A program made the translations under genes and the position numbers. A stretch of DNA of 61,645 nt, filler included, from Hausera hauseri (lineage: Eukaryota), in the NCBI GenBank assembly GCA_046269625.1. It is 11 parts of 11 records of this genome, joined end to end, with 100 filler letters (N's around TTAATTAATTAA, not from the genome) between each part and the next. Parts side by side here need not be neighbours in the genome. Positions count along the whole stretch, not along the records: positions 15,067 to 22,269 come from JBJURY010031114.1; 10 more parts are not named here. One strand, written 5' to 3'. Below, piece by piece: positions 1 through 55,875 of this stretch. The notes below the pieces were generated by a model, which did no database searches, was not told where the DNA came from, and worked only from the letters and a program-made list of their open reading frames with translations. Each line of letters opens with the position of its first letter. The first letter of the stretch is position 1.

Positions 1-1236
1 ATGTAAAATTTCAAATAGTGTTTGTGGATCAAACTAGTTCTGCGATGAAGACATGTAATTTTCCGTATGCAGCTTATAAGAAATGTTGCGATTCGGATTT
101 TGGATAAACATATAAATATAAATTTCAAATGTTCTATTATAACCTGCCCGGAACCAAAGCGTACATAATCACCGAATTTGAAATAAAAATGCCTCAACGC
201 AACGACATAAATAAAGCCAAGACGGACGATATAGTCCGGAAAACCGATCAGTTTAAGAGACTCTTAGATTATAAATTTATTGGAATCTTTAAAGATCTTA
301 AGAACCAATGCATTCAAATTAAGACCAAACTAGAACTGCCAAGGACAGACAAATTTCCATCCGATTTATACCACTAAATACCTCGACTCCCCACGAAATA
401 TTGTTATACAGCACGACGACGATTCATCACACAGCCTCAAATATGACATCGACGACTACTTACAGCAGAATGACACAGTTCTTAAGCCCCATCTAAAAGC
501 TTGTATCGATAGATTGGAGAGGACTTGAAAGACATGGCCTATGTAGAGATTAACCAAGAAATCAGAATACCAAATGGATTGAAATGGGTTTTAGAGAAAA
601 TCGACTAGTTCGATTATATGCTATGAGAAATGCAAAGGATGCACGAGTATACCTATTGCGAGACATGATCCCATATGAACCGACGTTTCAGCAATTGTAC
701 GTACGTCACTAATGGTGAAATACAATATAAAGTTGTTGGACAGCTCTGGAGCACGCAGAGGGCAACAATGGAAATTCAGTACATACGAATTATGTTGCTC
801 GAATTTCATGGATTACGCTCAAGTTTCGAATAGCAGAATTAACGACCAAGATTACGTTTGAACAAACCTTGAGAATAGAAGTAATGAAACCACTATCGCC
901 AATACTATGTATACAGAAACCATCGGAAGACGAAATAGAACAGAATAGAGAGTCATTTCTACTAGTTCCAGACAGCAGGAATACCAGGATTCTAGAAGTA
1001 AATTATGGAGAGAAGGACGATGGATGGTACACTCAAATCGAAGTTTCTAACCGAAGTATAAATGAAGAAATTGTAAACAAGATAATAGCATCCAGAGCTA
1101 AAGTAAAGGATACTTGTCCTGACGTTAGAGGAACTACAAAGTTACAACTCGAAAGAGGATGACTTTTTGGACATGCAAGAAGACATAAGTCATTGCTTGT
1201 ATGGATTCATTGTAACCGGTTTCAGAGTACATGAAA
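1..1236 (+). pseudogene. Decayed unknown ORF; second copy of the RING-terminated LTR-element ORF at 15067-17117
   Basis: About 750-1236 aligns with 15085-15580 (EVMKPLSPILCIQKPSEDEIEQN vs EVMKPLPPLLCIQKPSEDEIEQN; QEDISHCLYG in both). Stops and frameshifts present; homology ends abruptly at 1236. Confidence 0.75.
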
Positions 1237-2482
1237 TGTATTGGTTCCCCTTAGGTATCCCAATATATAAAATAACATTTAAGGAGTTTAAGATGGATTA
1301 ATACCTTTGCATCAGTCCCATCTGAAGATTCAGGAGTTCTGTGCCGGTCCGGCAACTCAAGATTATCTGCAAAAATGAATGTAGTCGGTAAGAAGTTAGC
1401 AATATCTTATCAGATGTGAGAGGACTAAATAATCTTATTTTTATTTATAAGTATAAATTCATGTATTTATTCAATCTTTAGGGTAGAATGAACAACCTGA
1501 ACAAGTTCTATAAATACAATCATGGCATCCATTACTGAATGATTTAAATCTCAACTAAAATCACTACTCAAATATACGGACAGTACTAACTGGATAACTT
1601 TTGAATAATTTATATTGTAGTTCTGGGTTTAAGATCTCGTCATCATACGCCATAATATTCAGATGAGAGGTTACCGCGGAAGCTCATAAAAATTTCCTTG
1701 TTATCGTAAGGTCAGAACAGAATACCTCCATCGCAATCATCATATACTAATTCTACTCATTTGATTAAATGTTATGCGACAGAAATATTAACAGAGACTA
1801 TAATATATGCGAAGTTTTATAATATAATATGGCAGGGGCATTGGATTGTTGATTAATCTCGTCATCTTACGGGTAATTTCTGCACCGGATAGTGAAGTCA
1901 CTATACCTCGCAGATTAGTCTATGATTCCGGTTAATATAAGGGTTACCCAATTTGCAACTTTAAGTGTGGTACTGATAAATCGGTTCGTATACAATGATC
2001 GTGTTTTAATTTGGGTTTATAAGTAAAGCATGTATGATTGGGTTCGAATCTCCAGGTAACTGAACCTCACGCTTTGAGAGATTATTTGTTTGTATACTTA
2101 TACAGAGTACCTGCGATGTTTCACCAGCTTTTGCATCTGCATAAATATACGTTTCTCATACGTCGACCTTCGTCGCACTCAAAGAGAAACATTACGTAAG
2201 GCTCATTATCCCCCATTCTCGCTTAGGTTTAGCCTGTAGTTGAATCCGATAGTCGAACGACAGTCTTAATTACTCCGTCATCTTAGCTGCCAGTTAATCC
2301 CTTTTTCTTCATCGACCACTTGACTCATGTAATTAGCTAATCGTCGGCACAAGTCTGCTATCTACAATATCGATTCCATCATCTCCACATGTTAGTACAT
2401 CAGAATTCATCTGCAGGGATGTTACTTTTCTGCTGGTTGTATTCCCTATTATGACATCACTGTCGGAGTGATCGCTGCAACA
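1237..2482 (-). mobile_element. Putative 3' LTR (~1.25 kb) of an LTR retrotransposon inserted into the ORF above
   Basis: Termini TGT...ACA. On the minus strand it is preceded by a purine-rich tract GGATAGAGAAGT (2483-2494) and has AATAAA signals near its 3' end. The left end coincides with the break in ORF homology. Confidence 0.6.
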
Positions 2483-6649: not shown

Positions 6650-7768
6650 CTAGGCCCATTTAAAATTTTCTTTGAAATGTGTGTTGATTTTAAGGTTACG
6701 TACATTACCTATGAAACCAATTTTCTTTTCTATCGGATTATCACATACGTATGTATTCACTTCATGACTATATATGTTCTCCCTGGACTTGAATATCTTT
6801 AAATCCAAACCAGGTGTTATAAGATTCAATTCATAATTTTCTCCCAATCCCCAAGTTCCCTCCCCAAATATATAACCATAAGAAAAAACATTTAATTTAA
6901 TTTTGCATTCATTCCTAGCCATTTTTATCGGAGTGCTCCTCTCCGGGGGACTCTGTCCACCTTTAATTATCGGTATCATAACATGCATACTGAATTTATC
7001 AATCACACCATCCCCGGCAACACCATTGGGAACGAAGGGGGAATAACGACAGGAAATCATAATATTATCATAACATATCACATTACCTAACGTTCTCTCT
7101 TTCACACAACTCATCAGACTTTGAAATACGACTTCCAATACAATGTCATGCCCATCCGACTTTACGTTTTCGATTTCTAACATTTCATTGAAGATTAGAT
7201 ATTCCGCAAATATTTCTCCTTTCTTTTTCCCTCTGTCTTTGTTCCCCGGGGAACGTCTAAAAAAATTAGATAATTGACCAAATTTTAACATTCCAATAAC
7301 AAGATATATAAATTTATACCGATGAGACTCTTTACTTTCAAACGTAACGAATGCAATTCTTCTCTTTCTTATTATTTTTGGTAAATGTGAATGAAGCGTA
7401 TCAAACATAGTTGACCTTTCATAAGTACAACTCTTTTCCAAATCATCTTTAATAAATTCCATAATACGATTTAGGACAACTTCCGCCTGATCTAGTGGTG
7501 GATCATAATGAGCTTTCTTAAGTTTGGAAATGTACGATTTGTAGAGTAAATTAGTTAATTGGGACAGAGACAGTGATTTTATCTTTCCTTGTCTTTCCTG
7601 TCTGGAATTTTCTACTTTTCTCGGAGAGATCCTACACCCATACTCTCCAATTTCTTCTGCACTAATTGGGATATAAATTTTGTCAAATTTCCCTATTTTT
7701 TGCATGAAATTTGATTCTTTCCTATTTGTCCGTAACAGGACTTTAAAAACAAACAGTTTGAAATTCAT
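6650..7768 (-). CDS. Intact 372-aa intronless protein of unknown function
   Basis: Long uninterrupted ATG-initiated ORF in AT-rich DNA with globular-protein composition; no family recognised. Confidence 0.65.
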   Translation of the reverse strand: MNFKLFVFKVLLRTNRKESNFMQKIGKFDKIYIPISAEEIGEYGCRISPRKVENSRQERQGKIKSLSLSQLTNLLYKSYISKLKKAHYDPPLDQAEVVLNRIMEFIKDDLEKSCTYERSTMFDTLHSHLPKIIRKRRIAFVTFESKESHRYKFIYLVIGMLKFGQLSNFFRRSPGNKDRGKKKGEIFAEYLIFNEMLEIENVKSDGHDIVLEVVFQSLMSCVKERTLGNVICYDNIMISCRYSPFVPNGVAGDGVIDKFSMHVMIPIIKGGQSPPERSTPIKMARNECKIKLNVFSYGYIFGEGTWGLGENYELNLITPGLDLKIFKSRENIYSHEVNTYVCDNPIEKKIGFIGNVRNLKINTHFKENFKWA

Positions 7769-9720
7769 ATTTTATAATATCATTAATTTAATATTTTTTC
7801 CATTTTTCATCAATTCTAATTCTATAGTGATTAATTCTTAGTGATATATTTTTATATAAAACTTTGTGGTAAACCCATTCAGCCACTGAAGAAGTACAGG
7901 CGAAAATTATCACGATGTATTATTAATTTGATCAATCTAACGATAATTTTGAATGAAGAAAATTTTCTAAATTAAATGACCAAAGTACATAGTACATTAC
8001 ATTTTGAAAAGGTAGCAAACCCGGCTTCATTCGCCATCTAACCGAGATTTAAAAATGATTTTTTTTGAAATGTATAAATTTTAATAATTTCCAAATTTGG
8101 TCTATAAAGGCAGACATGAATTTTTTCATCAATTTGTGTACAATTGTAATTTTCTGTTCTTTCTCACATACATTTCTTCATTTTAATTCCAATTGGGTTT
8201 TGCTGTTTTGATGTTTCTTCTGGTAATAATTGGTTCATAAAACAGATTCCTGAAACGCTCAATAGTTTGTTTATATATGATACAGTTTCTTACACTTTTG
8301 ATCACCGCCTTCATTCCCCCCGTCTCCACGAATGTCGCCAGGTATTCCTTGCATTCTCGTTCATTTATCGACACATTTTATTTTTGCACCATGCATATCG
8401 TCAAACACTTATTCAATCAAACCCAACCCAGCAACCAATTATTTTAATACAAACAGTACAACCAAACATACGAACATACATATACATACTCCTAAATAAT
8501 ACGCATATATCTATATACATATTTATATTATATACAACTCTATACCCCCTTCAAACGTCTTGAAATTGACTGGATTGCCCAACTAAACAATTGGGTTCCA
8601 ACAGTAACAGTATTTTTATTTTGTAAAATTAGTTATACAAATATAGAATTTCCCAATTTTGACAAATTTTAGAACTTAATTCAAATGTGTTTTGTGACTT
8701 AACCATACAACTTTCGAGTTAAAATTTTTTATGGCTTATAGAGGAAGATCTCGGCCATCAGATTCCAAAGCTTCCACCAAGTTAGCATGAATATGAATAT
8801 GTAAAAATTGCTTTTGAAAAACATTCCCTACCCTTAAAAGATGAATGCACAAAATAAAAGAGAAAAGAGAAAAAAATAAACTAATTACTATTGAATTGCG
8901 TTAAATGATTAGAGACGAAAGGTATTTGCAATATTACAAGGTACATACAAAGAGATGAATGAGAATAAGTTCAATGAGATGAATCAACTAAACATAAGTA
9001 AAATGTTACAATCAAATATCAACTGATTAAAAAGAAAGAATACACTATACGCAAGTCGAAAATGAACACATCAAATCAAAATTGAACGTCAAATGTTATT
9101 GTTCTATATCCCACTGTAATGACTGGAGCATCCTTTAATGATCCAAATCGACACTTTCATGCGAGATTCTTGTGTATAGAAGGTCTTCTCTGTCTGGTTT
9201 CTTTCCTTTGGGGACTCTTTTCACGGGTTATTATTGGCATGTTATTTTTTAGTAATAGTAGAGATTTTAGATCCATATTTCCATAATTCTTTTCTAAATG
9301 GTCTATGCCAATACCTCTTTTTAGTCTCAATTGCAATCTGGTGCTGAGTCAACACCAAAATTTATGGTAACTTCAGTACCCTATTGTCCTTCAAGTATGG
9401 GATAAAAATATATATATTCTCCAATTTCTGGTAAATAAAACTAATTAATACATTTTCTGAACTCCATTTATATAGAACTGAGGAGTCTATTTTATTGACA
9501 ATAAGGCCTCTGTACCTCATGTATGGGAACTGGTAAGTGTAAATAATTACACTGAGTTGATTCCAAAATTGAAAACGATATTTTTTCACGAATAATACAT
9601 TTTCTATTCGTTTTGCCATTTTTATAGTCTCCGAATCTACGGTTTGTGTAGTTTGATTGTTTTTTATAAGAGCGTTATTCCAGTTGTTATGTTCAATTAA
9701 TTAATTACTGTCTTCTGCAT

Positions 9721-12900: not shown

Positions 12901-13277
12901 TTAGTGATCTGAATTTTCTTTAAGACTCCATACTGTCTTGTTCCTTCATAAGGATCTTCATAGCTGAAGGGTTTCTGACAAAATGCTGATCTGTATGACA
13001 TCATAGATGCTTTGTCACGATCCTCGTATATCGGAGCTGTTGGCAGCATGATACGTAAGAGTGCTCTAATCACTGAATACATTCTATGTCTATTTTGTCC
13101 AAGGACTGCTTCTTCTCCCTTAGGCTTATCATCACTGGAGTTAGTTCTTCGGGTCGTTGTTTTCTTGGCCTTGTGTATTAATCGAAATATGGGTCTTGCT
13201 CGCCGTTTATAGTTATAGTAGCCGACATGGCGTTCAACATCATCTTTCCATCGATTTTCTTCATAATCCTTAAGCAT
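9963..13277 (-). pseudogene. pol: Ty3/Gypsy pol (linker-PR-RT-RNaseH-integrase N-terminus), decayed
   Basis: PR ALIDTGSEKS; RT MPFGITTGPAIF..YLDDVMI; RNase H ..RLNRWIEEISQYNIEFQYKPG..TDALSR; integrase zinc finger HDSHLAGH..CEVC. Order PR-RT-RH-IN, with several stops and frameshifts. Confidence 0.95.
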
Positions 13278-14966
13278 TTTACGAAGGGTGTGATAATTGC
13301 GGTTAAGATCTTACAGGAAAATCCTTTTAGCGTAATTATTTTGTATCCATTTATAACTGTTTTGATCACCGCCTTTACTAATTGTACCATGAAATAGATT
13401 GCTAAGAATCCAGATGCAGCTTGTTTAAAAATTAAAAATCTTCCCCACATTTTGGATAGTATTTCTGTGGTTACTTGCTGGTAGTGGTTCGCACCAAGTA
13501 AGGATTCCCATTTAGCCTGGTAGCGGGTATCGTCTACTACTGATGCCATAGCTCGGTTTAATTCGTGTGTTCGCTGTCGTGAAAAAGCGAGAAATTGTCG
13601 AAAAGCTTCGATTTCTTTTGGTCTGTAAATGCCTTTTTGAGAACTTGTCGTCTGTAATTCCTTTTGCTAAATTAGTCCCAGTTAGTTTTTTAGGAATGGT
13701 AGTGATGCCTCCATTAGGTAGGCTACCCCAATCTATTTCGCTACGCCTAAACATCGGTTCACCAAACTTGCCATACAATCTTTTAGAATGGTTGGTTGTG
13801 TCGCATTATCGAGCAACAGTCTAGTGAGAGGCATAGCTAAGCGCGGATATTTTGATAGATCACAGGAAGTTCTTGTATGCATCGTTTTTCCTTAACATTA
13901 ATTGGTACGTCTCTTTTCTCGCATTCGTATGTCAGTAGAACTTCTCCAGTAACTTAACCAAAAATTCCTTCTTTAATGGGAATAACTGGTGAGGCTAATT
14001 CCGGGTTTGCATAAATAAGAGATAATTTTGTCCTAATAATTTCCGTATCTAATTTGCAATCGTTAGTTATCATTTTGTGGTATAGTTCTGCTATTCCAAC
14101 CTGTCCCTTATAATAGAAATAATCGTCTTTGTTTTTCAGATAATCCTCGATTCGAATGTCTTGTGTTTATAGGTTGTATGTTTTCGCGTTTATCTCCGTT
14201 TCTGCGGCGAAGAACGCTTCATAATTAGTGGTGAACATTACTACTTTGCAGAGTGAAATCGTTTCCTTTTTTATGAATTTCAATCCATGTTGATCAGAGA
14301 TTAATATTGTAGGTGTGTGATGCTCTGATACGTCTTTACGTGCTCTTGAACTGATGTCGGATTTATCTACGTATTGTTTCCCAGTAGTTTCGTTAAATTT
14401 CAATTTTTTGATCTTAATAAAATTACAGGCTTTTCCCGTGGGCGGTTCCCATATAACCAGAGAACTTCTGAAGGCACAAGTTCCGTCTTGTATGTGACAT
14501 TTTTTGATTCTCCGTATACTGCTTAGTAACACTACGGAATATTACTTTTTGGATTTGAATTTCCGATTCATAGAAGTCTACTACTACTACGTTTTCTTTC
14601 AATCCTTTTCCGGTATCGTATTATGTTTCACTACAGTGCCCGTTATGCATATCTAGCCTTCCGGCTACTATCTTATATGCTCCTATTATTTTTCCTAATT
14701 GCATTTCCAATTCCATGCTACCCCATTTCGGTCTTCCAGTTTCTCGGGCTTATTTACAATGTTGCCTTTCCAAATTCATGGGAATTGGAGGAGTTATTGG
14801 TTTAATTATTGAGGAGTGTCCGTGCATTAGTCCACAATGAAAAATGCTACGAGATTGTTTCAGCATACATTCCATACCATCCAGAGATATAAATGCTTGT
14901 TGTTGGTATAGGAAATAGTTCTTTTCTTTTGTTTCCAATTTGTATGGTCTGGTATCTTCAAATGCA
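13178..14966 (-). pseudogene. env: Chuvirus-type (class III, gB-like) envelope glycoprotein, decayed, 5' truncated by gap
   Basis: Motifs recalled from chuviral G: ECMLKQSRSIFHCGLMHGHSS; CHIQDGTC..VIWEPP..C; ISLCKVVMFTTNY; ELYHKMITNDCKLDTE..NPELA..GEVLLTYEC; C-terminal hydrophobic WGRFLIF..ASGFLAIYFMVQLVKAVIKTVINGY..GFSCKILTAI. Confidence 0.8.
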
Positions 14967-15066: not shown

Positions 15067-17117
15067 GATCGTAGGAAAATTCTAAAGTACACAAAAAGGA
15101 CAACAATGGAAATTTAGTACCTATGAACTATGTTTCTATAGCCTCATGAAATATGCTCTAGAATTCAGAATCGCAGAACTTCCAACCAAACTCATGTTCA
15201 AAATGACCTGGCAAACAGAAGTAATGAAACCCCTACCACCATTACTATGCATACAAAAGCCTTCAGAGGATGAGATAGAACAGAATGGAGAATCTTACAG
15301 ATTGGTTCCAGACGGCCGAAATACTCGAATTTTAGCCGTAAGCTATGGAGAAAAGGATGATGGATGGCATATACCTATTGAATTCTCTATTCGGAGGATA
15401 AACGGAGAAGAACTTATAAACAAAGTAATCGCGCCTCGAGCTAGAGTAAAGGATACCTTTCCCGGCGTTACTGGAATTACGAAGGTACAGCTCGAAAAGA
15501 GAAAAGATTTCTTGGAACTCCAGGAAGACATAAGCCATTGTTTATATGGATACATTGTTACCAGATTTCGAGTGTACGAAGCGTTAAAACAGCTAGGAAT
15601 TAGACAGGAGTATATAGCCGGAATTCGTGAACTGAGTCGAAATATAGAGGTTGTAGGTCAAGCGCAAAATACTTTAATGAGGAAAAGAGGGTGTCTGCTT
15701 CCGTCAGCGTCGCGTGAACCACAATTTAAGATGAAGTTAGAGGCCATGAATAGCGAACGATTCAAATTTCCTAAACTGATGTCAGCAAGTCTAAGAACAA
15801 GGTTTATAAAAGATATCTATACCTCATTACGATGGGAACATGAGTGAAAACCCAGAAATCTCGTACAGAATTTGATATACGACAACAATCCGAAGGTCTT
15901 GATACAAAAATTCCGAAAAGAGTTTAGCGAGATCCAGTTTATAGGCAAATGGAACCCCAAGAATATAATCGATTTCGAGTAACTATACACAATAGTTTAG
16001 CAGAAACATCAAATAGTCGACAAAAACCGTCAACCAGTCGAGCTCAAGATGACATGGCAGCAAAACTTAATAATCCAGAAAAATGGAGAGGACAAAAGAC
16101 AAAAACCTCCTTTCTAGAATATATTAGCAAAAAAGAAGCAAAACCAGTAAGAGCCAAACGAAAGAAATCAAATCATCATCAAACAGCCCTACACAAAGTG
16201 AACGGATAAACGATCAAACCGAAATACCGATCAGACAAGGAACGAAAGAAAACAAAGAAGACCAATAAAAAGTACTAAACCCAAATCCCTCAAGACGGAT
16301 GCAAACGTCCTTCGGAAGAATTGGGAAGAAGATTTCCTAATTTTGGTCAGGTGAAAGAATACCACCGAATGGTTGTCATGGCCGAATATTATAGCAAGGG
16401 TAAGATTAAGGAAGCGATATTTTATGTATCAACCGTTCCTAGGAGAATAGTAAGTGGAAACGGATACGCCAGAGAAGATACCACTATTGGCAGATATCTA
16501 GCCCCAATATTCCAATCAAAGAATGGTACTAACCGATTGACAATCCCCGTGGATACCAAAGTTCTAATTCACCTAAAGAGGCAATACAAGAAAACTGGAA
16601 TACCTGATTTAGATAAGCAAGACGTAGGCGAGTGGACCTTAGTCACAGTGTCAGATGACACTAAAAAAAGTTCTATAGACCCTAAACAGAAACATTTATA
16701 TGGATACTTATATCAAGATAAAAAAGACTAGTATTCGAACGAATAGAAGTTGATGAAAACCTCGTAGACATAGATGGAGGAGAAAAGGAAGAGTGCCCTA
16801 TTTGCGACGCTAATCTCTACCAAGGATTCGTATTGTTGGACAATAAAGACTGTACTCACAAGTACTATAGATACTGTTTAGAAACATGGACCCTAAAAAA
16901 CGGGAAAACGACGTGTCCTGTATGTAGAGCCGAAGTTACCAGACTGAAATACTATGCCCATTAAGAAAATAAAAAGGTAGTAGAAATGCTGCCCCAAAAA
17001 CCCACTACATCCTACAACTTTGACTTACAATCTCCACGAGACGAATCGGATTCGGAAACGGACTCACGTGGACGAATGAACCGACTGCGCGGCACATCCG
17101 AGAGTGCCGTTCAGTGA
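15067..17117 (+). pseudogene. Long unknown LTR-element ORF with C-terminal C3HC4 RING finger (16794-16925) and acidic tail
   Basis: Same-strand fragments 15146-15847, 15949-16209 and 16321-16731. After a frameshift in an A-run it reads ECPICDANLYQGFVLLDNKDCTHKYYRYCLETWTLKNGKTTCPVCR, then an internal TAA, ..RDESDSETDS..; the last stop overlaps the PPT. Confidence 0.75.
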
Positions 17118-17124
17118 GGAGAAA

Positions 17125-17860
17125 TGTTATAAAAGTTCACTAAGTATGTACAAATGTAAATAACCGAAAATGAAAGTAGAATTTTAAGAAACAAAACCGA
17201 AACTGAAATTGTACATCGGTATTTAGAACCCGAAAAATTAATTAGCTAATTCGTTCGGCAGAAATCGATTTAAAACTTGTTGATAGTCGAAAACTGTGTA
17301 AAATAACCAGAGAAAATTGAAAATTACATATAGACGAATATTTAGTGGCCAGAATTGGCAGAAAAATTAGATGGAATTCATCAGAGTAAAACTAATTAGC
17401 CAAAGGCTATATAAACAGAGTAAGTCGACAGTATGAGGAAGAAGTGAAATTTTAGGGGATAAAATCGTGTCAGTTCCCGTATCGTCTGAAAAATTTGTTG
17501 TTCTGTATCAACTAAGACTTATTCATAACTCACAGTGATTCGATTGATATTGCCGATTATTGTATATTGGTATATTATTTTGATTTCAATAAATTGTGTA
17601 TTTTAAAATTCTTCTATAGTTTCCGTCGCTCCTTGCGACGGACTTGTACTACACTAAGGATTAAAATCATATTAAACTTTATAGTTAAATCGAAATTTTC
17701 TAAACTACTAAAGGCACAGCACGCAGTACACGCATCCTAAACTAGTGCAAACATTCTAACGAGAACGTTAGAACTTATCTGCTTATAAATATTGTTCTAA
17801 TTTGAGTTTCGATATTGTTATCGTTGGGTGTTGAATAGGACCCACCTTCAACTACTAACA
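17125..17860 (+). mobile_element. 3' LTR (736 bp) preceded by PPT GAGGAGAAA (17116-17124)
   Basis: Termini TGTTA...TAACA (perfect 5-bp inverted repeat), TATATAAA at ~17408, AATAAA at ~17589. The right end truncates the Polinton protease gene. Confidence 0.8.
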
Positions 17861-18150
17861 AAATTGATTGTATTCAACACGATATGATGATGATTGTCGT
17901 TCAATTTGTGAAACTAACGATGACGGGTAGTAAAATCCGAGCGGATCGAATATCCTGACGACGTTGGTCGGATGGTGGACGTACACAGCTATCTAATGTT
18001 CGCCCAGCAACGATGAAGTGTGTATTGACAATAAAGCCACCGCTGCCAGTTGGTTGTAAATCACGCGGCACACCATCCAGTGGAAACACGCCACGAAATT
18101 TCGCACCAATGAGCCGTTTTCCGTAGTGATTGAGCTCGGTGGAGCTAAAT
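17861..18150 (-). pseudogene. Polinton adenain-like cysteine protease, truncated by LTR insertion
   Basis: KFRGVFPLDGVP..FIVNTH / LGEH*IAVYV..IFDPLG..VEYNQ matches the adenain pattern F.GVFP.D..IVNT..GEHW.A..FD..G..YN. Confidence 0.85.
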
Positions 18151-18197
18151 GTGAATTAAGTATAATAGTAATAGTAGTAATAAATTACTTATAATAT

Positions 18198-18219
18198 GAA
18201 GAAGAAGAAGAAGAAGAAG
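18198..18219 (+). repeat. (GAA)n microsatellite
   Basis: Visible directly in the sequence. Confidence 0.9.
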
Positions 18220-18239
18220 TGAGACACAGCGGATTTTAT

Positions 18240-19464
18240 TTATACAATAATGGTTCCGTTTTTCGTTATTTCAACCTCGACATCAAATACACCGTAAATG
18301 TACATCATGGTAGACTGCTCCAACGTTTTAGCAAAATGAATCTCCAGTCGTAGGTTTCCCAGGTGAGGTAGTTGAGTCTGCTCAACATGATAATCCGGAG
18401 CCAGGACAAAAGTGAAAAATGAATAGGTGGACTTGAACAAATTCATTGATATGCCATTGTTGATGTTTTTCTTCAGCAAACTTATGTTGCGCACAATAGA
18501 TTACATATATATCATTAGACTCAAAGTCTTGTTTGTACGTCTCAACGAAATCCGCATTCCGGCCCAAACTGATATAATTTACATTGCTATGGGTAAACGT
18601 TTCCGAATCGGTGGTATAACTGCCCGTTTGATGAACTGTCCTTTGAAATGTAACGGGCACAAATTTCGGCAATCGCATGTCGCCAAACAGTGCAACTTTG
18701 TAAAACGTAGTTGAACCTTTCGGTATGGTGTAAAAGACGAGTTCTGTGCGTTGTATCGGGTAACAGACATTTTGCGTTTCCAAACCCAATCGATGTCCCA
18801 TGAGCACAGATTGTTCTAACTTTACTCGACATACGTATAATCGTGTCTAGGTAATTTTTAGTATGGGTTTGAGATATGCAACAGCGGTTTTCAAACAAAA
18901 GACATTGTCGCTTCGTTTTAGCCAAATCATGGCTTTAACACCGGGTAGTAGGTATATTGGCTGATTGAAAAAGTCAAAGTACAGCGGCCCACACATTGTA
19001 AGCGGTTTTGATTCTGCCACCCATTAATGACGGTTTGCGGCTGTAGCATCGTATCCGATGGTTTTTGCTAAATTAGTCGTTTTTGTGTCTGTGCTGTAAT
19101 TCAGAGCCGTTTCAATGAGTGCTTTGATACTGTATAGACTGGTTTTGCCTTCGATTTTGAGGCTGTTCAGATTCAGTGAAGCCTGCTGGAACAGTGTGAG
19201 GAAAAATTAATTGGCCGGTGTGACAGTATCTGTTACAGCGAGAACAGTTGACGCGTCCTTTTTAACAATGACTTTTACATAGAGTAGCGTAACGTTCAAA
19301 TCTAGGTATTCATTGTCCGAAGCCGTAATGTTGAATTAAATGTCAATGTTATTGTCCGTTGAAACCGAATCAATGGGGTAAATTTCTTCAAATGCCACAT
19401 TGTCAAGAACAATTTGTGACGCCTCTTTGTCAAATATGCACAATTCGGATTTTGCAGATGCCAT
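18240..19464 (-). pseudogene. Polinton major capsid protein (double jelly-roll, hexon-like)
   Basis: N-terminus MASAKSELCIFD..EIYPI..EYLDLNVTLLYVK..LFQQ..IETALNY; C-terminus GNLRLEIHFAKTLE..VEVEITKNG. About 408 codons with stops and frameshifts. Confidence 0.9.
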
Positions 19465-19467
19465 CAG

Positions 19468-19797
19468 TCAATTGAAAATCGTACGACGGCGTTTTCGTTT
19501 TCTCGTCATTAAGCCACTTCCAGCGAATTGGTTTTTGATTGATTCAAAGACTTCCGGTGCAGCGCTTTTTATTTCCGACAAGGCGTGTTTCTTCATTGAT
19601 GGTAAAATCGATTTATTTTCATATAGTATGTCCTGTGCTGTTTTTGCTGCCACGGCACAGATACGCTTCAACAGCGGAAATGCTAAACGTGCCAATGTAC
19701 GCAACCATCCAAAGCCGTACTGTTTACCGACGAAATACGGCAGTTCCCTGCCCTTATGCGGATTTCTGTAAATGGAAACGATTTTAGAATCAATCAT
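19468..19797 (-). CDS. Small Polinton virion protein (pVI/pX-like: protease site, amphipathic helix, basic NLS)
   Basis: LPYFVGKQYGFG followed by WLRTLARLAFPLLKR; FAGSG then RKRKRRR; lies between penton and MCP. Confidence 0.75.
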   Translation of the reverse strand: MIDSKIVSIYRNPHKGRELPYFVGKQYGFGWLRTLARLAFPLLKRICAVAAKTAQDILYENKSILPSMKKHALSEIKSAAPEVFESIKNQFAGSGLMTRKRKRRRTIFN

Positions 19798-20843
19798 ATT
19801 TTTGTTGTTGTATTCGATGGAAATGAATAGCTAGACTGGTTGCGGTACCGTAACGAAATTCAATAAGGTAATCCGCGTCATATCGGATATTCACTTCAAT
19901 ATTATTTATAGATGTAGATGTCACAGGTATGTATATTGGATTATCGAGCTTGACAGTGACATTGTCACCGGAAGTATACTTGCTGCTTTCCGGATAAATT
20001 GCTCGGAGTAGCGGTACACGTACTCCACCGATAAAAATCGGTTCGGTGACATTCACATAAATGTACATTTGACTTAGTCCCGTTTTCAGTTTGGGTTTGA
20101 GTGTTGCAACATTTGCCACCTCCGCCCCTGTCTTCGTATATGATGTCTGAAACTGCTGTTTTTCAAAACCCAATACCATGGCCAAAGCGTTGTCTAATGA
20201 AATGTCGACAATATCCTTTTTTAGTTCAAATTTAACGTACCCATTTGTATCTGACTGGAAAACTTTAAATATCACCTTGTACTTTTTATTAGAAAATTGT
20301 TGACCGAAATGTGCTACAGATTCGCAATAGACATTGTTGTATAGATAAATTTCACAGTTGTCTGATAATGTACGGGACTTAATCTTGAAGCAACAACATA
20401 TTCAATTTTAATATGTTGACCTTTGTACTTTGTATTTTTAAATCCAAATTTCTGCGCCATCTCAGAGGACTCAAAGGTAATAGTAAATTCAAAATCTGCC
20501 ATAAATGTAAGTATTCTCCTAAAATAAAAACACCGATCTTGCCGCATACACCGTAATTTGTACTGGTCGTGCAAATGGCCGATTCTCCAGCTATTATTTT
20601 ATTGTCAGTAAGTCTCAGAGGACAAAAATGTGTTTTTGTTTCAGTAACAGTCTTGTTGTACGTTATTTTCATACTACCTTTGAATGTTACCGGTGCGTAG
20701 GGAAAGTTAAATTCCGTCCGTGCAACTTCCCATTTTCCAGATAAATCCAAAGGATTGTTCCAATCTACAACGTATTCATTAGCGGAATTGTTCGGACGAG
20801 TCGTCGGACAACTGTTGCTCGATAACATCATGTAAATACTCAT
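19790..20843 (-). pseudogene. Polinton minor capsid protein (penton) paralogue 2
   Basis: N-terminus IYMMLSSNS..PNNSANEY..PLDLSGKWEV..EFNFP; C-terminus MYIYVNVTEPIFIGGVRVPLLR..PIYIPV..INNIEVNIR..LAIHFHR. Frameshifted. Confidence 0.9.
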
Positions 20844-20888
20844 GATCTCGATGATGGTGATGATGGTAATGATGACGCAGTTTGTTTA

Positions 20889-21945
20889 CTATCGACGTTG
20901 ACGACGTCGAAAATGTAACTTCAAATGTTTCGTTGACCCGAACAGAAATTTAATGGGTTACCAAAATTCATCAAACATATACACGGAAATATTGTGCACA
21001 ATATTGTGAGACAATGGTAAGTGCATGGTTCTGAACATAATAACGCGAACAGTTTCACTCGATGTTTTGTGTGTGTCAGAATCTAGTTGGATAGAAGCTA
21101 GCAGTTGTTTAAGTTTTCCATCAACAATACGGATTCGGTTAAGTCTGTTAAAATGTTGATTCTATGAAATGCTCCATAGATTTGTGGTTTATATTTGGCA
21201 ACAATAGATCATCCAACAATGCTTTGATAGAATTTGCGTTGTTAAAAACTCATATTCCGAGCCAATAATTCATCAAAGGCAAAATATGTAACATTGTCAT
21301 AGAGTGTAATCGAAATATGACCATCTGCGTTTATTTCACATGTCTTTACGGCTAATGAGGCCGTTTTCTTGACGCATTCACACAATTCCAGTTCCGTTTC
21401 CATTAGTAAATCGTGCGGTATAATACATGAGTGGAAGACCGATTTTGACTTAGTCCACTTTACTATAATATCAGATTCCGCATCGGATGAAAGGTCCAAT
21501 TTTTCACCAACTATAACATGTCCACCTAGCCGTAGATGTTTTGAGTGTACATTGACTGATTGAAAACCCATACCTGAGCATTAGCTATGGATTTAAACGG
21601 CATTTCCATGGGATTTCGATGCAATAGTTTCAAACAAAAATAAGCATAAACCGAAAAATTTTATTGCGAATAATTGCGAAGAACATATCGGTTATTGTGT
21701 CGGATTGCCCGCAAACCACTTAAAATAAGGTTCGTTTCTTGTCGGGTAAAGTAAATACCACTGTTCTGACGTATTGTCATTAGTGAAAATGTAAATATGA
21801 ATTCCGTCAAAGCCACTTTCCATGCTCTGTGGCGTAATTCAACCGGTTGGTTCAAGTGCACGGTAAATTGTTTAGCGGTATTGTCGTCATTGTCTTCATG
21901 TTGTGATAATGATCTGTTACTATTAAGTACCAAATAAATGCCCAT
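20889..21945 (-). pseudogene. Polinton minor capsid protein (penton) paralogue 1
   Basis: N-terminus IYLVLNSN..NTAKQFTVHLNQPVEL..WKVALTEF; C-terminus ..KQLLASI..VHNISVYMFDEF..PIKF..LKLHFRRR. Confidence 0.85.
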
Positions 21946-22269
21946 CACTTAATCTGCGATGCAAAAATCCAACTCGGTGTAGTGTATCCGTGCCACTTGA
22001 TGAGATATTGTTTATTCGAACCTTTGCCGCGTGAACGTAGAATTTCTTGAATACAATATACATCGGGTTTCTCGGGCAGTACCTGCAGTTCCTGTTCGTA
22101 GAATTTACCGCCCATTTCCTCGCCATTTTCATCCTCTAAAACGTACATGACAGGTGTTTGTTTTGTGTTGATTGCCGAAATGCGGAAAACATCGTCGCTC
22201 CAGTTCTGATTGAAATTCTTAATGAATGGCGTCGTACTTATTTTTGAAATACGTACATAATCACCGATT
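21945..22269 (-). pseudogene. Polinton integrase C-terminus with chromodomain (5' part lost in gap)
   Basis: YVLEDENGEEMGGKFYEQELQ..YCIQEILRSRG..QYLIKWHGY..SWI; closely similar to 39260-39585. Confidence 0.9.
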
Positions 22270-37884: not shown

Positions 37885-38102
37885 TATGATAAAGATGAAG
37901 AATTTCCAAAAAACGATTGTTAAACGTAAACCTACCAAGCGGGTGTCCGGCGGCAAGAAACGTGTGCCAAAATGAAGCGCCACTACAGTCAAGTGATTAA
38001 TCAATTCTGTGCTTCGAACAACAACCAGACGCAAATTACCGTCAAAGTGGCAACGGTTATAAACAACTACGTCTCATCAGCAGCATCAATACGTCCACAA
38101 AA

Positions 38103-38426
38103 AATGCTATTCAAACGTAGTCACCAGTACTTTATTGCTTTGCTCAAGGCACTTACGAGACATAAGCGAAACATGCTGCGATCATTCCCACAGTTTGTAG
38201 TAAACAGTTTGATGGAAATTTTATACAATATCGTTGTGGGTCACGTTGACATTGGTAGTCGAAAGCGGAATTTACTAAAGTATCGAAAACGACTCATTGG
38301 CTTTGCCAACGCCCGTAGTAAACGACTGAAACGAGAGGTCATGTACCAGCAAGATGTCGGATTCCTTGGTGCAATTATATTAATTGTCACTTAATTACTG
38401 GGTGGACTCATTGGTTTTACAGCATA
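38103..38426 (+). pseudogene. Conserved small Polinton virion protein (pX/gasderminX-like)
   Basis: SLMEILYNIVVG..LLKYRKRL..QQDVGFLGAII..LLGGL resembles the Polinton ORF ending QxGGFL plus a hydrophobic tail; lies between ATPase and integrase. Confidence 0.6.
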
Positions 38427-38538
38427 GTATAAACAATGACGGTAGGTATATGATGATTCAGTGATATGGGTGCATGGTTTTCATCATTTTGCCCCTGTTT
38501 ACCGAATCCTTCATTTACGTTTTGTTCTAATTGTTGCA

Positions 38539-39585
38539 ATGCAAGCAAATCCGGCACCATCGACGACGACAACACCGATGGACGACGTGTGGTTTAACCC
38601 TCGTCATCCCGTCGGGTATACTGGCGACGACAAACTGGCAAAGACTGTCAAACAGACTCGGCAACAGACCCTACGTTGGCTCGGGAAACAGTTAGCATAC
38701 AAACTAAACAAACCGATAAGAAGGCGGTTTCCAACTCGTGCATATCGTGCTGACGGTGTAAATAAGGTATGGAAAATGGATCTGATGGAAATAATTCCGT
38801 ACGCCAGCATCAACGATGGGTATGGGTACGTGTTGACATGCGCTGATGTGTTTAGTCGTTTTGCACATGCAATTGCTGTGAAATCTAAATCCGGTAAAGA
38901 GATTACCGACGCTGTTCAGATGCCGATTCAACAACAACAACCGAAGCATTTACAAACGGATTTAAGTAAGGAATTATACAAAGCCCACGTTGCAGCGGTC
39001 TTGAAACGGTTCGGAGTAAACCACAAATAAAAGGCTGCACTTGTTAAACGATTTAATCGAACATTGCGCGGTCGCCTAAAGAAATTCTTTACGAAGCAAG
39101 GCAGCAAACGCTGGGTAGATGTGCTGCCGGATATTGTTCATGCATACAATCATTCGACACACCGTGATATCAATGGATTACGGCCGATTGACGTAATCAA
39201 TGATTTGGACATGTGGCTCTATCAAAACCGACAACAGACAATTAAATGCCCAAAATATAAAATCGGTGCTTACGTACGCATTTTGAAAATAAGTACGACG
39301 CCATTCATTAAGAATTTTAATCAGAACTGGAGCCATGAGGTTTTTCGAATTTCAGCAATCAACACAAAACAAACACCTGTCATGTACGTTTTAAAGGATG
39401 AAAAGGGTTATGAAATACGCGGTAAATTCTACGAACAGGAACTGCAGGTACTGCCCGAAAAACCCGATGTGTATCGTATTCAGAAAATTCTACGTTCATG
39501 TGACAAAGGTTCGAATGAACAATATCTCGTCAAGTGGCGCGGACCCACTGCACCGAGTTGAGTATTTGCATCACAGATTGAGTGA
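38539..39585 (+). pseudogene. Polinton retroviral-like (rve) integrase with chromodomain
   Basis: WFNPRHPVGY..WKMDL..YVLTCADVFSRFA..LQTDLSKE..RFNRTL..YNHS.H..NWSHEVF..KFYEQELQ..YLVKW. Confidence 0.93.
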
Positions 39586-40648
39586 TGAGCATTTATTTGA
39601 TATTTGATAGTAACAGATTATCAGAACATGAAAACAATAACAACAACAATACCGCTGAATGGTTTACCATGACGTTGGACCAGCCGCTTGACTTACGCCA
39701 GGGAGCCTGGGAAGTGGCTTTGGCGGATTTCACGATTACATTTTCGCCAAAAACAATACGTGAGAACAGTGGAATATACTATATTCTACTAAGACAGTCT
39801 CCTGAATCTAGTCGTTTGTAGCTAGTTCGAGACTCTAATGGAACATTTCACGTTTACAATTACCAACGGCAATATTTCGCGGTTTATATTTTTCATTTAA
39901 ACAATTGATTGGTGCCAAAACACAAACATCCGACTGAATTGCAATTTAAATCACTTGAGACTCTCAGGCATGGGGTTTTCAATCATTTGCCAATGTACTC
40001 TCGAAAGGTCTACAGCTCGGTGGACATAATATAATTAGTGAAAAATTGAACTTTTCCACTGCGAAAACTACCGATATTACAGTGAACTGGCAAAGACTGA
40101 ATCATTCATTAACTCTCATACAACAGGAATTGGTTTTCTTACGGAAACGGAAACCGAATTGTGTGCAACCATCAAGGCAGTAGCTAAATTGGTTCTCAAG
40201 ACATTTGAAATAAACTTTGATGGTCGTATTTTGTTTATACTACATGATAATGTTACATATTTTGCTTTTGATGAACTATTGGCAAGGAATCTGGGTTTTA
40301 AGAAACTAGAATTTGGTCAAACCGGCGGCGGACGTTACATGTTGCTAAACACAAACCACGTCTCTACGAAGCATTTCATCGAATCAGTATTTTAACGGTT
40401 CTAACCGAACCCGTATATGTTGGCGGAGACCGTAAACAACTATTGGCTTCTATTGGACTGGATTCGGACACGTAAAAAACACCGGGCGAAACTGCTCATG
40501 TAAATATCATCCGGCCCATATACTATCGTTTTCTCACAGTGTTGTGCACAGTATTTCCGTGCATATAGTAGACGAATTTTAGAAACCCATTAAATTTCTG
40601 TTCGGAGCCAAGACACATTTGATGCTACATTTTCGTCGTCATCAATAA
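39585..40648 (+). pseudogene. Penton paralogue 1 (second copy)
   Basis: MSIYLIFDSN..NTAEWFTMTLDQPLDL..WEVALADF; DNVTYFAFDELLARN shared with 21242-21571; ends LHFRRHQ. Confidence 0.85.
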
Positions 40649-40683
40649 CAAACAAACTGCGTCATCATGATCATTATCGAGAT

Positions 40684-40793
40684 CATTAGTATTTACGTGG
40701 TGTTGCCGAGCAACATTTGTCCGACGACTCGTCCGAACAATTCAGCCAGTGAATACGTTGTAGATTGGAACAATCCTTTGGATTTATCTGCTG
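40684..40793 (+). pseudogene. Penton paralogue 2 N-terminus (second copy, cut by gap)
   Basis: SIYVVLPSNICPTTRPNNSASEYVVDWNNPLDLS, almost identical to the N-terminus starting at 20843. Confidence 0.85.
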
Positions 40794-45553: not shown

Positions 45554-45761
45554 CTATGTACGTATTGTTATTCTTTGTTCAATAAATGTTGTAGAAATAT
45601 CGTGTTGTTTTCTTGATCAAGTAATGTGGGATAAGGCTAAGTAAAACTAAGTAACTACTATATAGGTTAAGACTAAGTGAAACTTAGATCAATAAAATCA
45701 ATTCATTTGAATAATAAATACAGTGCGACATTTACTTGCATTAATCTTTCATTATTTCAAA

Positions 45762-46037
45762 ATGTTGAAAACTTCTCCGATTTGTTGGGAGCAGATGCCT
45801 GATAAAACAATGAGATTGGCGGTATGCGACACGCATACTTTCTGCATAGGCTGTCTGCAGAAATGGCTAAGCACTAGAATGTCTTGTCCACTATGCAGAA
45901 CAAAGTGTGAGTATGTGATAGTCCAGGATGTTGAAGACCATTGCCTGTATGTAACATGGGTAGGGTGCCTGATAAAACCCCTACATGAATTCTTACCAGA
46001 CAGTGACAGTGACAGTGATGATACTATTATTATGTGA
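45762..46037 (+). CDS. Small C3HC4 RING-finger protein (putative E3 ligase) with acidic tail, downstream of pPolB
   Basis: (S)PIC..CDTHTFCIGCLQKW..SCPLCR..DSDSDSDD; first Cys appears mutated TGT>TCT. Confidence 0.8.
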   Translation: MLKTSPICWEQMPDKTMRLAVCDTHTFCIGCLQKWLSTRMSCPLCRTKCEYVIVQDVEDHCLYVTWVGCLIKPLHEFLPDSDSDSDDTIIM

Positions 46038-50344: not shown

Positions 50345-51670
50345 NNNNNNNNNNNNNNNNNNNNNNNNNNNNNNNNNNNNNNNNNNNNTTAATTAATTAA
50401 NNNNNNNNNNNNNNNNNNNNNNNNNNNNNNNNNNNNNNNNNNNNCAATCTGCCGCAGAAATTCCTTTGTTCACAACCGAAATTTAAACAAATTCTTTCGC
50501 GCCAAATTCAAATTTTTACACGTACCTAAAATCCATACAGTACGCGTGCTTGTGTGTATCCACTTTCTGACTGTGTGTCTCCTATCTCAGCCCTATTAAC
50601 CGTGCGTGCGTGTATCGTTTTGTCTACCCCATGATTCATCCGCGAACCAAAAAAGAATTTTCTTCCCCCGGGAGGGGGCTTGGGGTCATGCGCTCACATC
50701 TACCTACTGGTAGCCAACAACGGGTGCAACAAGCACAGATTTTAAGGCGGCGAGTAGCTTTAATGCAACGTAAAATACATGGCGACCAATTGTTTCCTAC
50801 TCCATTGAATTCACTACCGCAGACTTGAAAATTCTGTAAATAAACCATCTATGAATAATGACGATAATACATGCAATAATGACTTTTCTAAGCAGAAACC
50901 AATGCCTTCAAATATTATTCCCCCAACATTTCAATCTCAAAAATCTCAAATTAAAAATATTTATTCTAATAATGTTAATAGTACATTAAATACCGCTACC
51001 CCAAATTACTTTACTAATCTGAAAACAGCTACGGATGAAAATGTGCGTGAAGATTTTATCAAAAATTTCAACGACTGGCTTGACACATCCAAACAAAGTC
51101 ATTGTCAATCCTCCATTTCAAAACATCCAGTCTGTCAGTGACGACTATATGAGATCAACGAGATTATTTAACAATAATCCTGTGTACATCGCACCTATTC
51201 CACAACAATTACATCCCACTCAAACAGCAAATTCGCTGTTTAATTATCCGAAACAAAGCAATCCTCAATCTGTCAAAGCTGTTCAGGAGTTAGCGAAATC
51301 AGTTCATTTGATGCAAAAACCTCTGGAACGATTTCCAGAGTTGCTATCAATAAAAAAAATTATATTAGATGTATGCATATCGTTACTCCATTATTTATAA
51401 TGCGAAACGACTCTATCAGTGAGAGAGTTGTCAATCATTTGGGTGAGAAGTCGAGGGTGACCGTCAACGCTTCACTGCATCCCCTTTCTCTTCTTATTTT
51501 TGCCCATAACAAACATGTACACACACTAAGTGTTGCATGCAAACATATGGCGCACATCCTTTATTCTGCATTGTCTTCCTTTTTCGGCTCCTCCGACTTT
51601 TATTGCACTCACAATGGCTTGACTCTGTTACATTCTGATTCTGTCATCTTTTGCATCCGGGAAACATTCA

Positions 51671-52690
51671 ATGATATTCACTGTCTATTTTCGCATTCGT
51701 GATGTATCAGACCCTGACCCTTCTGCCGAAAATTTAACCAAAACCAGATATGGTAGTCGTCCTGCCGACCCCACACCAAGTACATCTCCAAATCTACATT
51801 GCACAGATTTTCTTCTTGATAAAACCAATTCTAGTCGCACTTGGTTACAGTTTCATTTGCAATGGCTTAAAGCCAATTATATCACAGACTCCTTTTTGCT
51901 GGCGAAAAGTTTGCTGCTACTACTGCCAGCTAACATCAAGCAGAAAATCAAGAATCTTGCTGACATACTTACTTCTTCAAGCCCATATGACATGCTTTAT
52001 GAATCAGTTCTGAATATCACCGACTCTTCCATTGGCAGCATAATTCAAAAATACTTCAATGAGCATGCCATCGAAAATCAAAATCCATCGGACTTCCGGA
52101 AAACTGCTATCTCTGAACTGAGTTCCTTAGGCGTCACTTCAATAAACAATGCCGATCTTCTTCATCGGTATTTTCTTTCATCGTTGTCAACTTCCATCAG
52201 GGCGCTGCTCACTGTAGTAGATGACTCTGCTGCCCTTGAAAAACTCGCCTTATTGGCAGACCAAAGTTTTGACATTTTGCAGTCTAATAATCCACAACCA
52301 GTAGCTGCAGCAATCGCTTACACAACTTTATACACCGAGAACACTTCATTTTCACAACAATTTCAATTGATACAGCGACAGTTTGACGAGTTACAGCAGT
52401 CGATTTAGCCATTACTACCCAGCTAAATAATCTTAATAAGCCTTGACGAGGCAAAACCAGACCTTTAAGGGAGAAAATCACTTTCAGACACTGCTCGATC
52501 CATTTCATCAGGCCGACGCATGACTTGTTTTTATCACACGCGATTTTGAAGGGATGCTAGGAAGTGTTTTTTGGGTTGTTGGTTGTACAGCGAATGGTAC
52601 GCTATGGACAACCCCATTTGTGTCTATCACAATAAATTTCAGTCACGGACTAGATCATGTGTGCTTGTTTGTAAACATTATAAAAAGAAT
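51671..52690 (+). pseudogene. gag: gag of a CsRn1/Kabuki-like Gypsy element with two CHCC knuckles
   Basis: PYDMLYESVL..QNPSDF..LALLAD; then CFYHTRF*RDARKC..C and CVYHNKFQSRTRSCVLVC. Confidence 0.75.
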
Positions 52691-52849
52691 TTTAGTTTCT
52701 TCTTCTTCGCATCCTCGCACTCACCATTCCTCTTCTTTCTCCAAACAAGTCTTAAAAAACCAATAATGCAACCAGATGCCACGGTACATTTTGGTGCAGG
52801 TAATATTATTCAATCTTCTGGCCGTTTCAACACCGCCTCTGAAGTTTTT

Positions 52850-55800: not shown

Positions 55801-55875
55801 CGCAGCTGCCGTTTTACGTCAAGATAAACCTTATAACGTCCACATTTCGATTTTGAAGCCAGCTTTCTTCATTGA
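52850..55875 (+). pseudogene. pol: Ty3/Gypsy pol (PR-RT-RH-IN), CsRn1-like
   Basis: FLIDSGA; SPWASPLH..YRPCGDY; KAFHQIPV..MPFGL..YTDDILVAS; TTDA..YSTYDRELLA..TDHKPL; HHPG..CVAC; HLDLVG..WPEAVP..QGLQFES..YHPQANGLLERFHR. Confidence 0.95.

What the first reader, a model, noticed from the sequence alone, without database searches (positions are those of the whole stretch)
15067..17124. LTR retroelement with a very long unknown ORF ending in a RING finger at the PPT
Seen: ~2 kb of co-oriented coding remnants ending in a C3HC4 RING (missed by the ORF track) and an acidic tail, with the stop overlapping the PPT of a TGTTA..TAACA LTR. A diverged second copy (1-1236) extends it ~750 nt upstream, implying roughly 900 aa or more. 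Inference: an accessory E3 ligase in the usual env position, possibly an anti-silencing or anti-defence factor analogous to viral RING ligases such as ICP0.
Basis: partly seen in the sequence, partly recalled or inferred. Interest (0 to 1): 0.7.

Follow-up and report, generated by a model that had tools for sequence, protein, structure and literature searches.

The report
Retrotransposon gene: dead nuclease plus RING
A decayed copy of a repeated jumping gene ends in a long extra gene, kept under selection, that joins a nuclease-like domain lacking its cutting residues to a RING finger, so it likely tags RNA-bound proteins, possibly host defences, for destruction.

Summary
The observation mostly holds. 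15086-17132 is one broken, co-oriented ORF. An intact natural relative (P0001, 870 aa) matches it piece by piece, in order, at 40-49% identity, and shares its last residues, which are encoded across the PPT and the first LTR bases. The LTR (17125-17860, TGTTA..TAACA) has a sharp 3' end in a public run and no 4-6 bp TSD, so it is best read as the element's 3' LTR. The two window copies show purifying selection (pN/pS 0.19). The ORF is not wholly unknown: its middle is an ISG20L2/SDN1-type DEDDh exonuclease fold lacking the catalytic acidic residues, and a tentative cupin-like domain precedes it. It is not Env-like. Corrections: the window RING lacks one of eight ligands, the relative has no stop at the PPT, the tail is not really acidic, and only about 310 of the 750 upstream bases are confirmed as this ORF. 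No gag/pol link was found. E3 activity and any anti-silencing role are inferred. Extra ORF3 exonucleases are known in rotifer LTR elements; a dead DEDDh fused to a RING was not found in nine literature searches.

The parts
15086..15325 (+). ORF piece: 3' part of the N-terminal beta-rich domain (tentatively cupin-like) and spacer; P0001 162-244
   Evidence: tblastn; fold hint from low-confidence models, best Z 5.7
15326..15844 (+). DEDDh exonuclease-like domain (ISG20L2/ISG20/SDN1 type) lacking the catalytic acidic residues; P0001 about 245-416
   Evidence: profile without P0003 vs PDB: ISG20L2 E 8.9e-9, SDN1 1.8e-4, ISG20 2.4e-3; Foldseek rank 1 ISG20L2 for both models; site columns
15845..16350 (+). 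Stop at 15845, same-frame continuation to 15979, then a degenerate low-complexity linker with several stops and a frame change
   Evidence: P0001 419-597 is polar and has no predicted secondary structure
16351..16716 (+). Conserved domain of about 120-140 aa, fold unknown; P0001 599-721, 49% identical
   Evidence: no significant Pfam hit, no Atlas hit, 0 of 141 candidates
16728..16961 (+). Acidic patch and C3HC4 RING (16794-16925), after a frame change; one of eight zinc ligands missing in this copy
   Evidence: Pfam; 61% identity to P0001; pattern test
16962..17132 (+). C-terminal tail with stops at 16962 and 17115; the frame ends at the stop 17130-17132 inside the LTR
17116..17124 (+). Polypurine tract (9 purines) abutting TG
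   Evidence: sequence; the bin 17098-17126 is covered far more deeply by run X1 contigs than the U3 that follows
17125..17860 (+). LTR, 736 bp, TGTTA..TAACA, read as the 3' LTR
   Evidence: 29 contigs leave the stretch at exactly 17860 with unlike flanks; no 4-6 bp TSD
439..1238 (+). Second, frameshifted copy on another contig, covering P0001 56-330
   Evidence: codon test
17861..22269 (-). Flank, not part of the element: a very abundant Polinton/Maverick-like repeat into which the element is inserted
   Evidence: depth jump; similarity to the integrase-chromodomain contig 36815-40793; capsid and protease names are recalled motifs, not from a call

Best explanation
This is a decayed copy of a long extra gene at the 3' end of a repeated LTR element, likely a Ty3/Gypsy-type retrotransposon; it encodes a DEDDh exonuclease fold without catalytic residues plus a C3HC4 RING, and it likely works as an RNA- or RNP-targeted ubiquitin ligase that favours the element. 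Shown: domain order, ORF end across the PPT into the LTR, sharp element end, many diverged copies, purifying selection, loss of the catalytic residues. Inferred: that gag and pol lie upstream (about 0.75); that the RING recruits an E2 (about 0.75); that the dead nuclease binds RNA ends or RNA-bound partners, as other inactive DEDD domains do, and sets the target (about 0.5); that the target is a host silencing or RNA-surveillance protein rather than the element's own particle (about half of those cases).
For: Intact relative P0001 with a full C3HC4 and the same C-terminal junction. Run X1: 29 contigs diverge at 17860 (agreement 0.43); 19 contigs share the PPT junction and diverge after 17134. 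Differences by codon position 31/25/69 over 158 codons, pN/pS 0.19 (95% 0.14-0.27), against 1.09 and 1.35 in the other two frames. DEDDh identity by sequence profile, Foldseek and Atlas (score under 0.9, a lead only). No hydrophobic 19-mer above 0.95 after residue 55. Precedents: extra ORFs in place of env, with DEDDy exonucleases (PMC5408684); amniote PML pairs a RING with a catalytically mutated DEDDh domain and promotes proteasomal loss of L1 ORF1p (PMC10123124).
Against: No gag, pol, 5' LTR or PBS could be tied to this ORF; 11 collection scans gave no true locus. Only one full-length relative is known. The three distant exonuclease-like relatives P0003-P0005 show no RING, though they lie on short contigs. 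Both structure models are poor (mean pLDDT 35.8 and 41.4). The selection test covers only 15086-15580, not the RING. No activity, expression or target data.
Confidence: 0.5

Rival explanations
1. Same element and ORF, but the protein serves the element's own cycle: it binds the element's RNA or particle and controls assembly, transport or Gag turnover, the RING acting on element proteins or as an interaction module.
For: Rodriguez 2017 proposes auxiliary replication roles for exonuclease ORF3s. RING domains are reported in Gag of Osvaldo-lineage elements (PMC3630058). Nothing here identifies a host target.
Against: Most LTR elements replicate without such a protein (general knowledge). A large multi-domain add-on in the accessory slot fits host interaction somewhat better (inference).
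Confidence: 0.27
2. The gene is cargo of a non-autonomous LTR element without gag/pol, copied in trans and kept because it helps the element family or the host.
For: No gag/pol link was found. The Gypsy pol remnants on contigs 3 and 10 share no DNA with 15067-18000.
Against: Contig 4 starts inside the ORF, so upstream genes cannot be seen. P0001 and P0002 lie on 16,242 and 12,445 nt contigs, long enough to hold gag-pol, but their DNA could not be read.
Confidence: 0.15
3. A host or DNA-virus gene (nuclease-like plus RING), processed or endogenised, with an unrelated solo LTR inserted at its end.
For: The window is rich in Polinton-like sequence, and another RING ORF lies at 45711-46037.
Against: No 4-6 bp TSD. 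P0001, at 45% identity, ends in the same residues as those encoded by the PPT and LTR start. Many contigs share the ORF-end/PPT junction with unlike U3. No named cellular or viral relative.
Confidence: 0.05

Closest known systems
DEDDy exonuclease ORF3 of bdelloid Juno and Vesta LTR retrotransposons (Rodriguez, Kenefick, Arkhipova 2017, PMC5408684)
   Same: Extra non-env ORF in the env position, carrying a DnaQ-superfamily 3'-5' exonuclease domain, no transmembrane segment.
   Different: Those are RNase D-like DEDDy with invariant residues intact, and the word RING does not occur in the paper. Here the best matches are ISG20L2/ISG20/SDN1, the catalytic residues are missing, and the ORF is about 820-870 aa with a C-terminal RING.
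ISG20L2 / ISG20 / SDN1 DEDDh exonucleases (PDB 7yw5, 1wlj, 5z9x)
   Same: Sequence profile and predicted fold of the middle domain.
   Different: ExoI Asp and Glu, ExoII Asp and the ExoIII His/Asp are absent in the window copy and P0001 (motif names recalled). The domain sits in a mobile element.
Burro giant Gypsy elements of planarians (PMC6431247)
   Same: LTR retrotransposons carrying ubiquitin-related accessory domains, proposed to meddle with host systems.
   Different: Those domains (AIR1-type zinc finger, MATH, BIR, SUMO-like, BCL2-like) lie in a 4,873-aa polyprotein or an upstream ORF; no DEDDh domain appears in the passages read.
RING in Gag of Osvaldo-lineage Gypsy elements (PMC3630058)
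   Same: RING finger encoded by an LTR retrotransposon.
   Different: It is in Gag, not in a 3' ORF, and has no nuclease partner.
Amniote PML-I (PMC10123124)
   Same: RING plus catalytically mutated DEDDh domain in one protein, linked to proteasomal turnover of a retroelement protein.
   Different: A host TRIM restriction factor with the RING at the N-terminus; an analogy of design only, no homology claimed.
Herpesvirus ICP0 (recalled)
   Same: C3HC4 RING in a selfish element's accessory protein.
   Different: No relation tested or seen; ICP0 has no nuclease-like domain (recalled).

Membership tests
LTR retrotransposon | Terminal repeat with TG..CA ends and internal promoter and polyA signals | tested here: met
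   TGTTA..TAACA, 736 bp, TATAAA 17410, AATAAA 17588; signals are motif matches only
LTR retrotransposon | PPT directly before the 3' LTR | tested here: met
   17116-17124; junction shared by many contigs and reflected in the end of P0001
LTR retrotransposon | Dispersed copies with a sharp end and varied flanks | tested here: met
   29 of 872 laid contigs leave at 17860, agreement 0.43; one run, possibly the source sample
LTR retrotransposon | Paired 5' LTR, PBS and TSD around the whole element | not testable with these tools
   contig begins inside the ORF; no genome held
Ty3/Gypsy (Metaviridae) | gag and PR-RT-RH-IN pol in cis, RT in the Gypsy clade | tested here: inconclusive
   11 collection scans gave no true locus; no DNA link to other contigs of the window
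Solo LTR | 4-6 bp TSD flanking the single LTR | tested here: not met
   only a 3-base A run matches
Env ORF3 | Signal peptide, transmembrane anchor, fusion-protein similarity | tested here: not met
   max 19-residue hydropathy 0.95 after residue 55; a hydrophobic start in P0001 1-24 is not shared by P0002; no fusion Pfam hit
DEDDh exonuclease | DnaQ-like fold and sequence | tested here: met
DEDDh exonuclease | Catalytic D-x-E, D and H-x4-D residues | tested here: not met
   absent in both window copies where covered, P0001 and P0002 (ExoI); P0003 keeps D-x-E
C3HC4 RING E3 ligase | Eight zinc ligands in cross-brace spacing | tested here: met
   met in P0001 747-790; the window copy has 7 of 8
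C3HC4 RING E3 ligase | E2 binding and ubiquitin transfer | not testable with these tools
   needs a bench assay
Bdelloid DEDDy ORF3 | RNase D-like DEDDy subtype with intact catalytic residues | tested here: not met
   best matches are DEDDh enzymes and the residues are lost; the rotifer sequences themselves were not compared
Cupin / double-stranded beta-helix | DSBH fold of the N-terminal domain | tested here: inconclusive
   best Z 5.7, rmsd 3.3-4.2, 83-89 aligned, on a model with pLDDT about 41; no Pfam or PDB sequence hit

The most novel reading that the evidence does not exclude
An animal LTR retrotransposon lineage built an RNA-guided ubiquitin ligase from a captured, disarmed ISG20/SDN-type nuclease and a RING, and uses it to destroy piRNA/siRNA or RNA-surveillance proteins: a transposon-encoded mirror image of PML-type host restriction.
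Probability: 0.25. Interest if true: 0.82.

Novelty: new variant of a known kind. Interest (0 to 1): 0.55.

Why it matters
Animal LTR retrotransposons have few characterised counter-defence proteins (general knowledge). This ORF gives a concrete candidate with separable parts: a RING that can be assayed, a dead nuclease whose RNA binding can be measured, and two conserved domains of unknown or tentative fold. It also suggests that DnaQ-type nucleases were captured into the ORF3 slot more than once, from a different subfamily than in rotifers, and reused without catalysis. If the protein only serves the element's own cycle, it remains a new accessory architecture of moderate interest.

Tried and rejected
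Genome context: no genome is held. Word-indexed protein searches: 0 of 628 candidates, 2 of 6866, both already known, 0 of 141 for the C-terminal part. Locus scans: 7 of viral contigs, 2 of metagenome contigs and 1 of genome contigs found nothing; one search gave 2 loci from 32 stretches, short and weak (E 6e-4, 7e-4), dropped as chance. The DNA of the P0001 and P0002 contigs could not be read, so the gag/pol link stays open. No RNA holder listed; this is no evidence on expression. Loose-end tables show only 6 of 110 rows, so a PBS behind a 5' LTR could not be looked for. The viral fold search on the full model was noise. The Atlas gave no usable hit for P0001 598-735. Four look-ups of earlier findings were empty. 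Circularity check: the first profile included the nuclease-like P0003; a profile without it still hit ISG20L2 at E 8.9e-9, while the closest family members alone reached polC exonuclease E 8.9e-4 and ISG20L2 only E 0.82. Summed contig depth was not used as a copy number. Malik 2000 (recalled as reporting an accessory exonuclease in nematode elements) is not held and could not be checked. Rejected: Env, active nuclease, acidic tail, solo LTR.

Full report
Setting. The window is 11 short contigs joined by N spacers and is made mostly of mobile-element remnants: Gypsy pol pieces, Polinton-like polymerase and integrase, a DDE transposase piece. An animal host is inferred from this content. No genome is held. 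The finding is at the start of contig 4, which begins inside the ORF; the second copy is on contig 1.

One ORF. Searching the 253-aa open piece 15086-15844 against 1.84 billion representatives gave 5 proteins at E <= 0.001, two of them strong: P0001 (870 aa, 44% identical) and P0002 (333 aa, 51%). None has an informative name. P0001 aligns in order to three window pieces, 15086-15979, 16351-16716 and 16728-17129, so the remnants are one broken gene. The window copy has stops at 15845, 16962 and 17115, several more in the linker, and frame changes in the linker and near 16720. Contig 1 covers P0001 56-330 from base 439; bases 1-438 match none of the five relatives.

Selection. Over 158 aligned codons of the two window copies, differences fall 31/25/69 on codon positions 1/2/3; pN/pS is 0.19 (bootstrap 0.14-0.27), against 1.09 and 1.35 in the other frames; synonymous sites are near saturation. 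This covers 15086-15580 only.

Link to the LTR. 17125-17860 runs TGTTA..TAACA, with a TATA motif at 17410 and a polyA motif at 17588. Its flanks share no 4-6 bp duplication. The purine run before it is not rare by itself (11 such sites), but three results tie it to the ORF. First, P0001 has no stop at the aligned place and its last four residues equal codons 17118-17129, which span the PPT and the first five LTR bases. Second, in run X1, 872 contigs lie on 17040-17890: 29 leave at exactly 17860 with unlike flanks (agreement 0.43), 19 go on unlike after 17134, and the PPT bin is covered far more deeply than the U3 behind it (6 of 110 loose-end rows shown). Third, many diverged contigs lie on the ORF itself, for example 58 differing at 15342. 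X1 may be the source sample, so this shows copies in one organism, not range. Downstream of 17860 lies a very abundant Polinton-like repeat on the minus strand (capsid and protease labels recalled), the insertion site.

Domains. The RING scores Pfam E 3.6e-8; P0001 has all eight ligands, the window copy seven. The middle of the protein is a DEDDh exonuclease fold. P0001 alone hits a DnaQ domain at E 8e-4. A profile of five family sequences without P0003 hits ISG20L2 (E 8.9e-9), SDN1 (1.8e-4) and ISG20 (2.4e-3); the closest members alone give weaker support. Both AlphaFold models are poor (pLDDT 35.8 and 41.4), yet Foldseek ranks ISG20L2 first for each. The ExoI Asp/Glu, ExoII Asp and ExoIII His/Asp positions hold other residues in the window copy and P0001, while P0003 keeps the ExoI pair (motif names recalled). 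The N-terminal 120 or so residues of the conserved part model as a beta sandwich matching cupins at Z up to 5.7, below the level the tool calls reliable. P0001 419-597 is a polar linker, and 599-721 is conserved (49%) but unassigned. There is no transmembrane segment in the conserved part, so this is not Env. The tail is not notably acidic.

Mechanism. A RING under long retention most simply means E2 recruitment (established knowledge of the family; untested here). A nuclease fold kept without catalysis suggests a binding module; Rodriguez 2017 notes that Maelstrom and EXD1 are inactive DEDD derivatives that keep RNA binding. I therefore commit to an RNA- or RNP-targeted ligase (0.5), with a host silencing or surveillance target in about half of that weight. 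The rivals are a role in the element's own cycle (0.27), cargo of a non-autonomous element (0.15) and a chance neighbour of a solo LTR (0.05).

What is missing. No gag, pol, 5' LTR or PBS could be linked; 11 collection scans gave no true locus, and the relatives' contigs could not be read. The Gypsy assignment is therefore inferred from the termini and the ORF position. Only one full-length relative is known, and P0003-P0005 show no RING.

Literature. Nine full-text searches found no LTR element with a dead DEDDh domain fused to a RING. Read: PMC5408684, part 1 of 5 of the text and 10 passages: DEDDy ORF3 with intact residues. PMC6431247, passages: Burro with ubiquitin-related domains. PMC5718144 and PMC6338049, passages: exonuclease listed as a known accessory domain. 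PMC13524379, abstract, outline and passages: no mention of RING or nuclease in the main text. PMC10123124, abstract and passages: PML analogy. PMC3630058, passages: RING in Gag. Malik 2000 is not held and is recalled only. No supplements were read, subscription journals and Repbase were not searchable, and an entry there could already describe this family.

Verdict. A real feature and a new variant of a known kind: an LTR-element accessory ORF with a new architecture (tentative cupin-like domain, dead DEDDh nuclease, linker, unknown domain, RING), ending across the PPT. Interest 0.55; 0.82 if the anti-silencing ligase reading (probability 0.25) is right.

Noticed in passing
window 4173-4030 (minus strand, contig 1): A second, more distant exonuclease-like remnant (profile i-E 8e-5), facing the ORF copy at 439-1238; possibly another element family with a similar domain.
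   Followed up: partly
window 14966-9963 (minus strand, contig 3): A Gypsy-type element in which a Monjiviricetes-type fusion glycoprotein remnant (13181-13666, PF24664 E 1.4e-21) lies upstream of protease-like, RT and integrase zinc-finger remnants: env before pol, as described for Burro but with a different glycoprotein class. Not linked to the finding.
   Followed up: partly
window 45711-46037 (+): A small RING ORF with an acidic C-terminus (zf-RING_2 E 2.8e-9) downstream of a B-family polymerase-like region of a Polinton-like element.
   Followed up: no
P0001 residues 14-20 and P0002 residues 17-23: Both called N-termini have a Phe-rich run at the same aligned place, about 40 residues before the conserved part, as a pyrimidine-rich splice acceptor would give if read in frame. 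A hint of a spliced subgenomic mRNA; inferred from amino acids only.
   Followed up: no
window 1-438 (+): A-rich and partly open, upstream of the second copy, with no match to the five relatives or Pfam (111-371): either a longer N-terminus or the end of an upstream gene.
   Followed up: partly
P0003, P0004, P0005: Distant relatives: P0003 keeps the ExoI D-x-E; P0004 and P0005 lack it, and P0005 also shares the N-terminal domain (hhalign 96.9%). They suggest a wider family in which catalysis was lost in steps.
   Followed up: partly
window 6650-7771 (minus strand): A 373-codon stop-free frame with no Pfam match.
   Followed up: no
window 51623-55856 (+): Another Gypsy-type pol remnant (RT, RNase H, integrase), no DNA similarity to the finding.
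   Followed up: no
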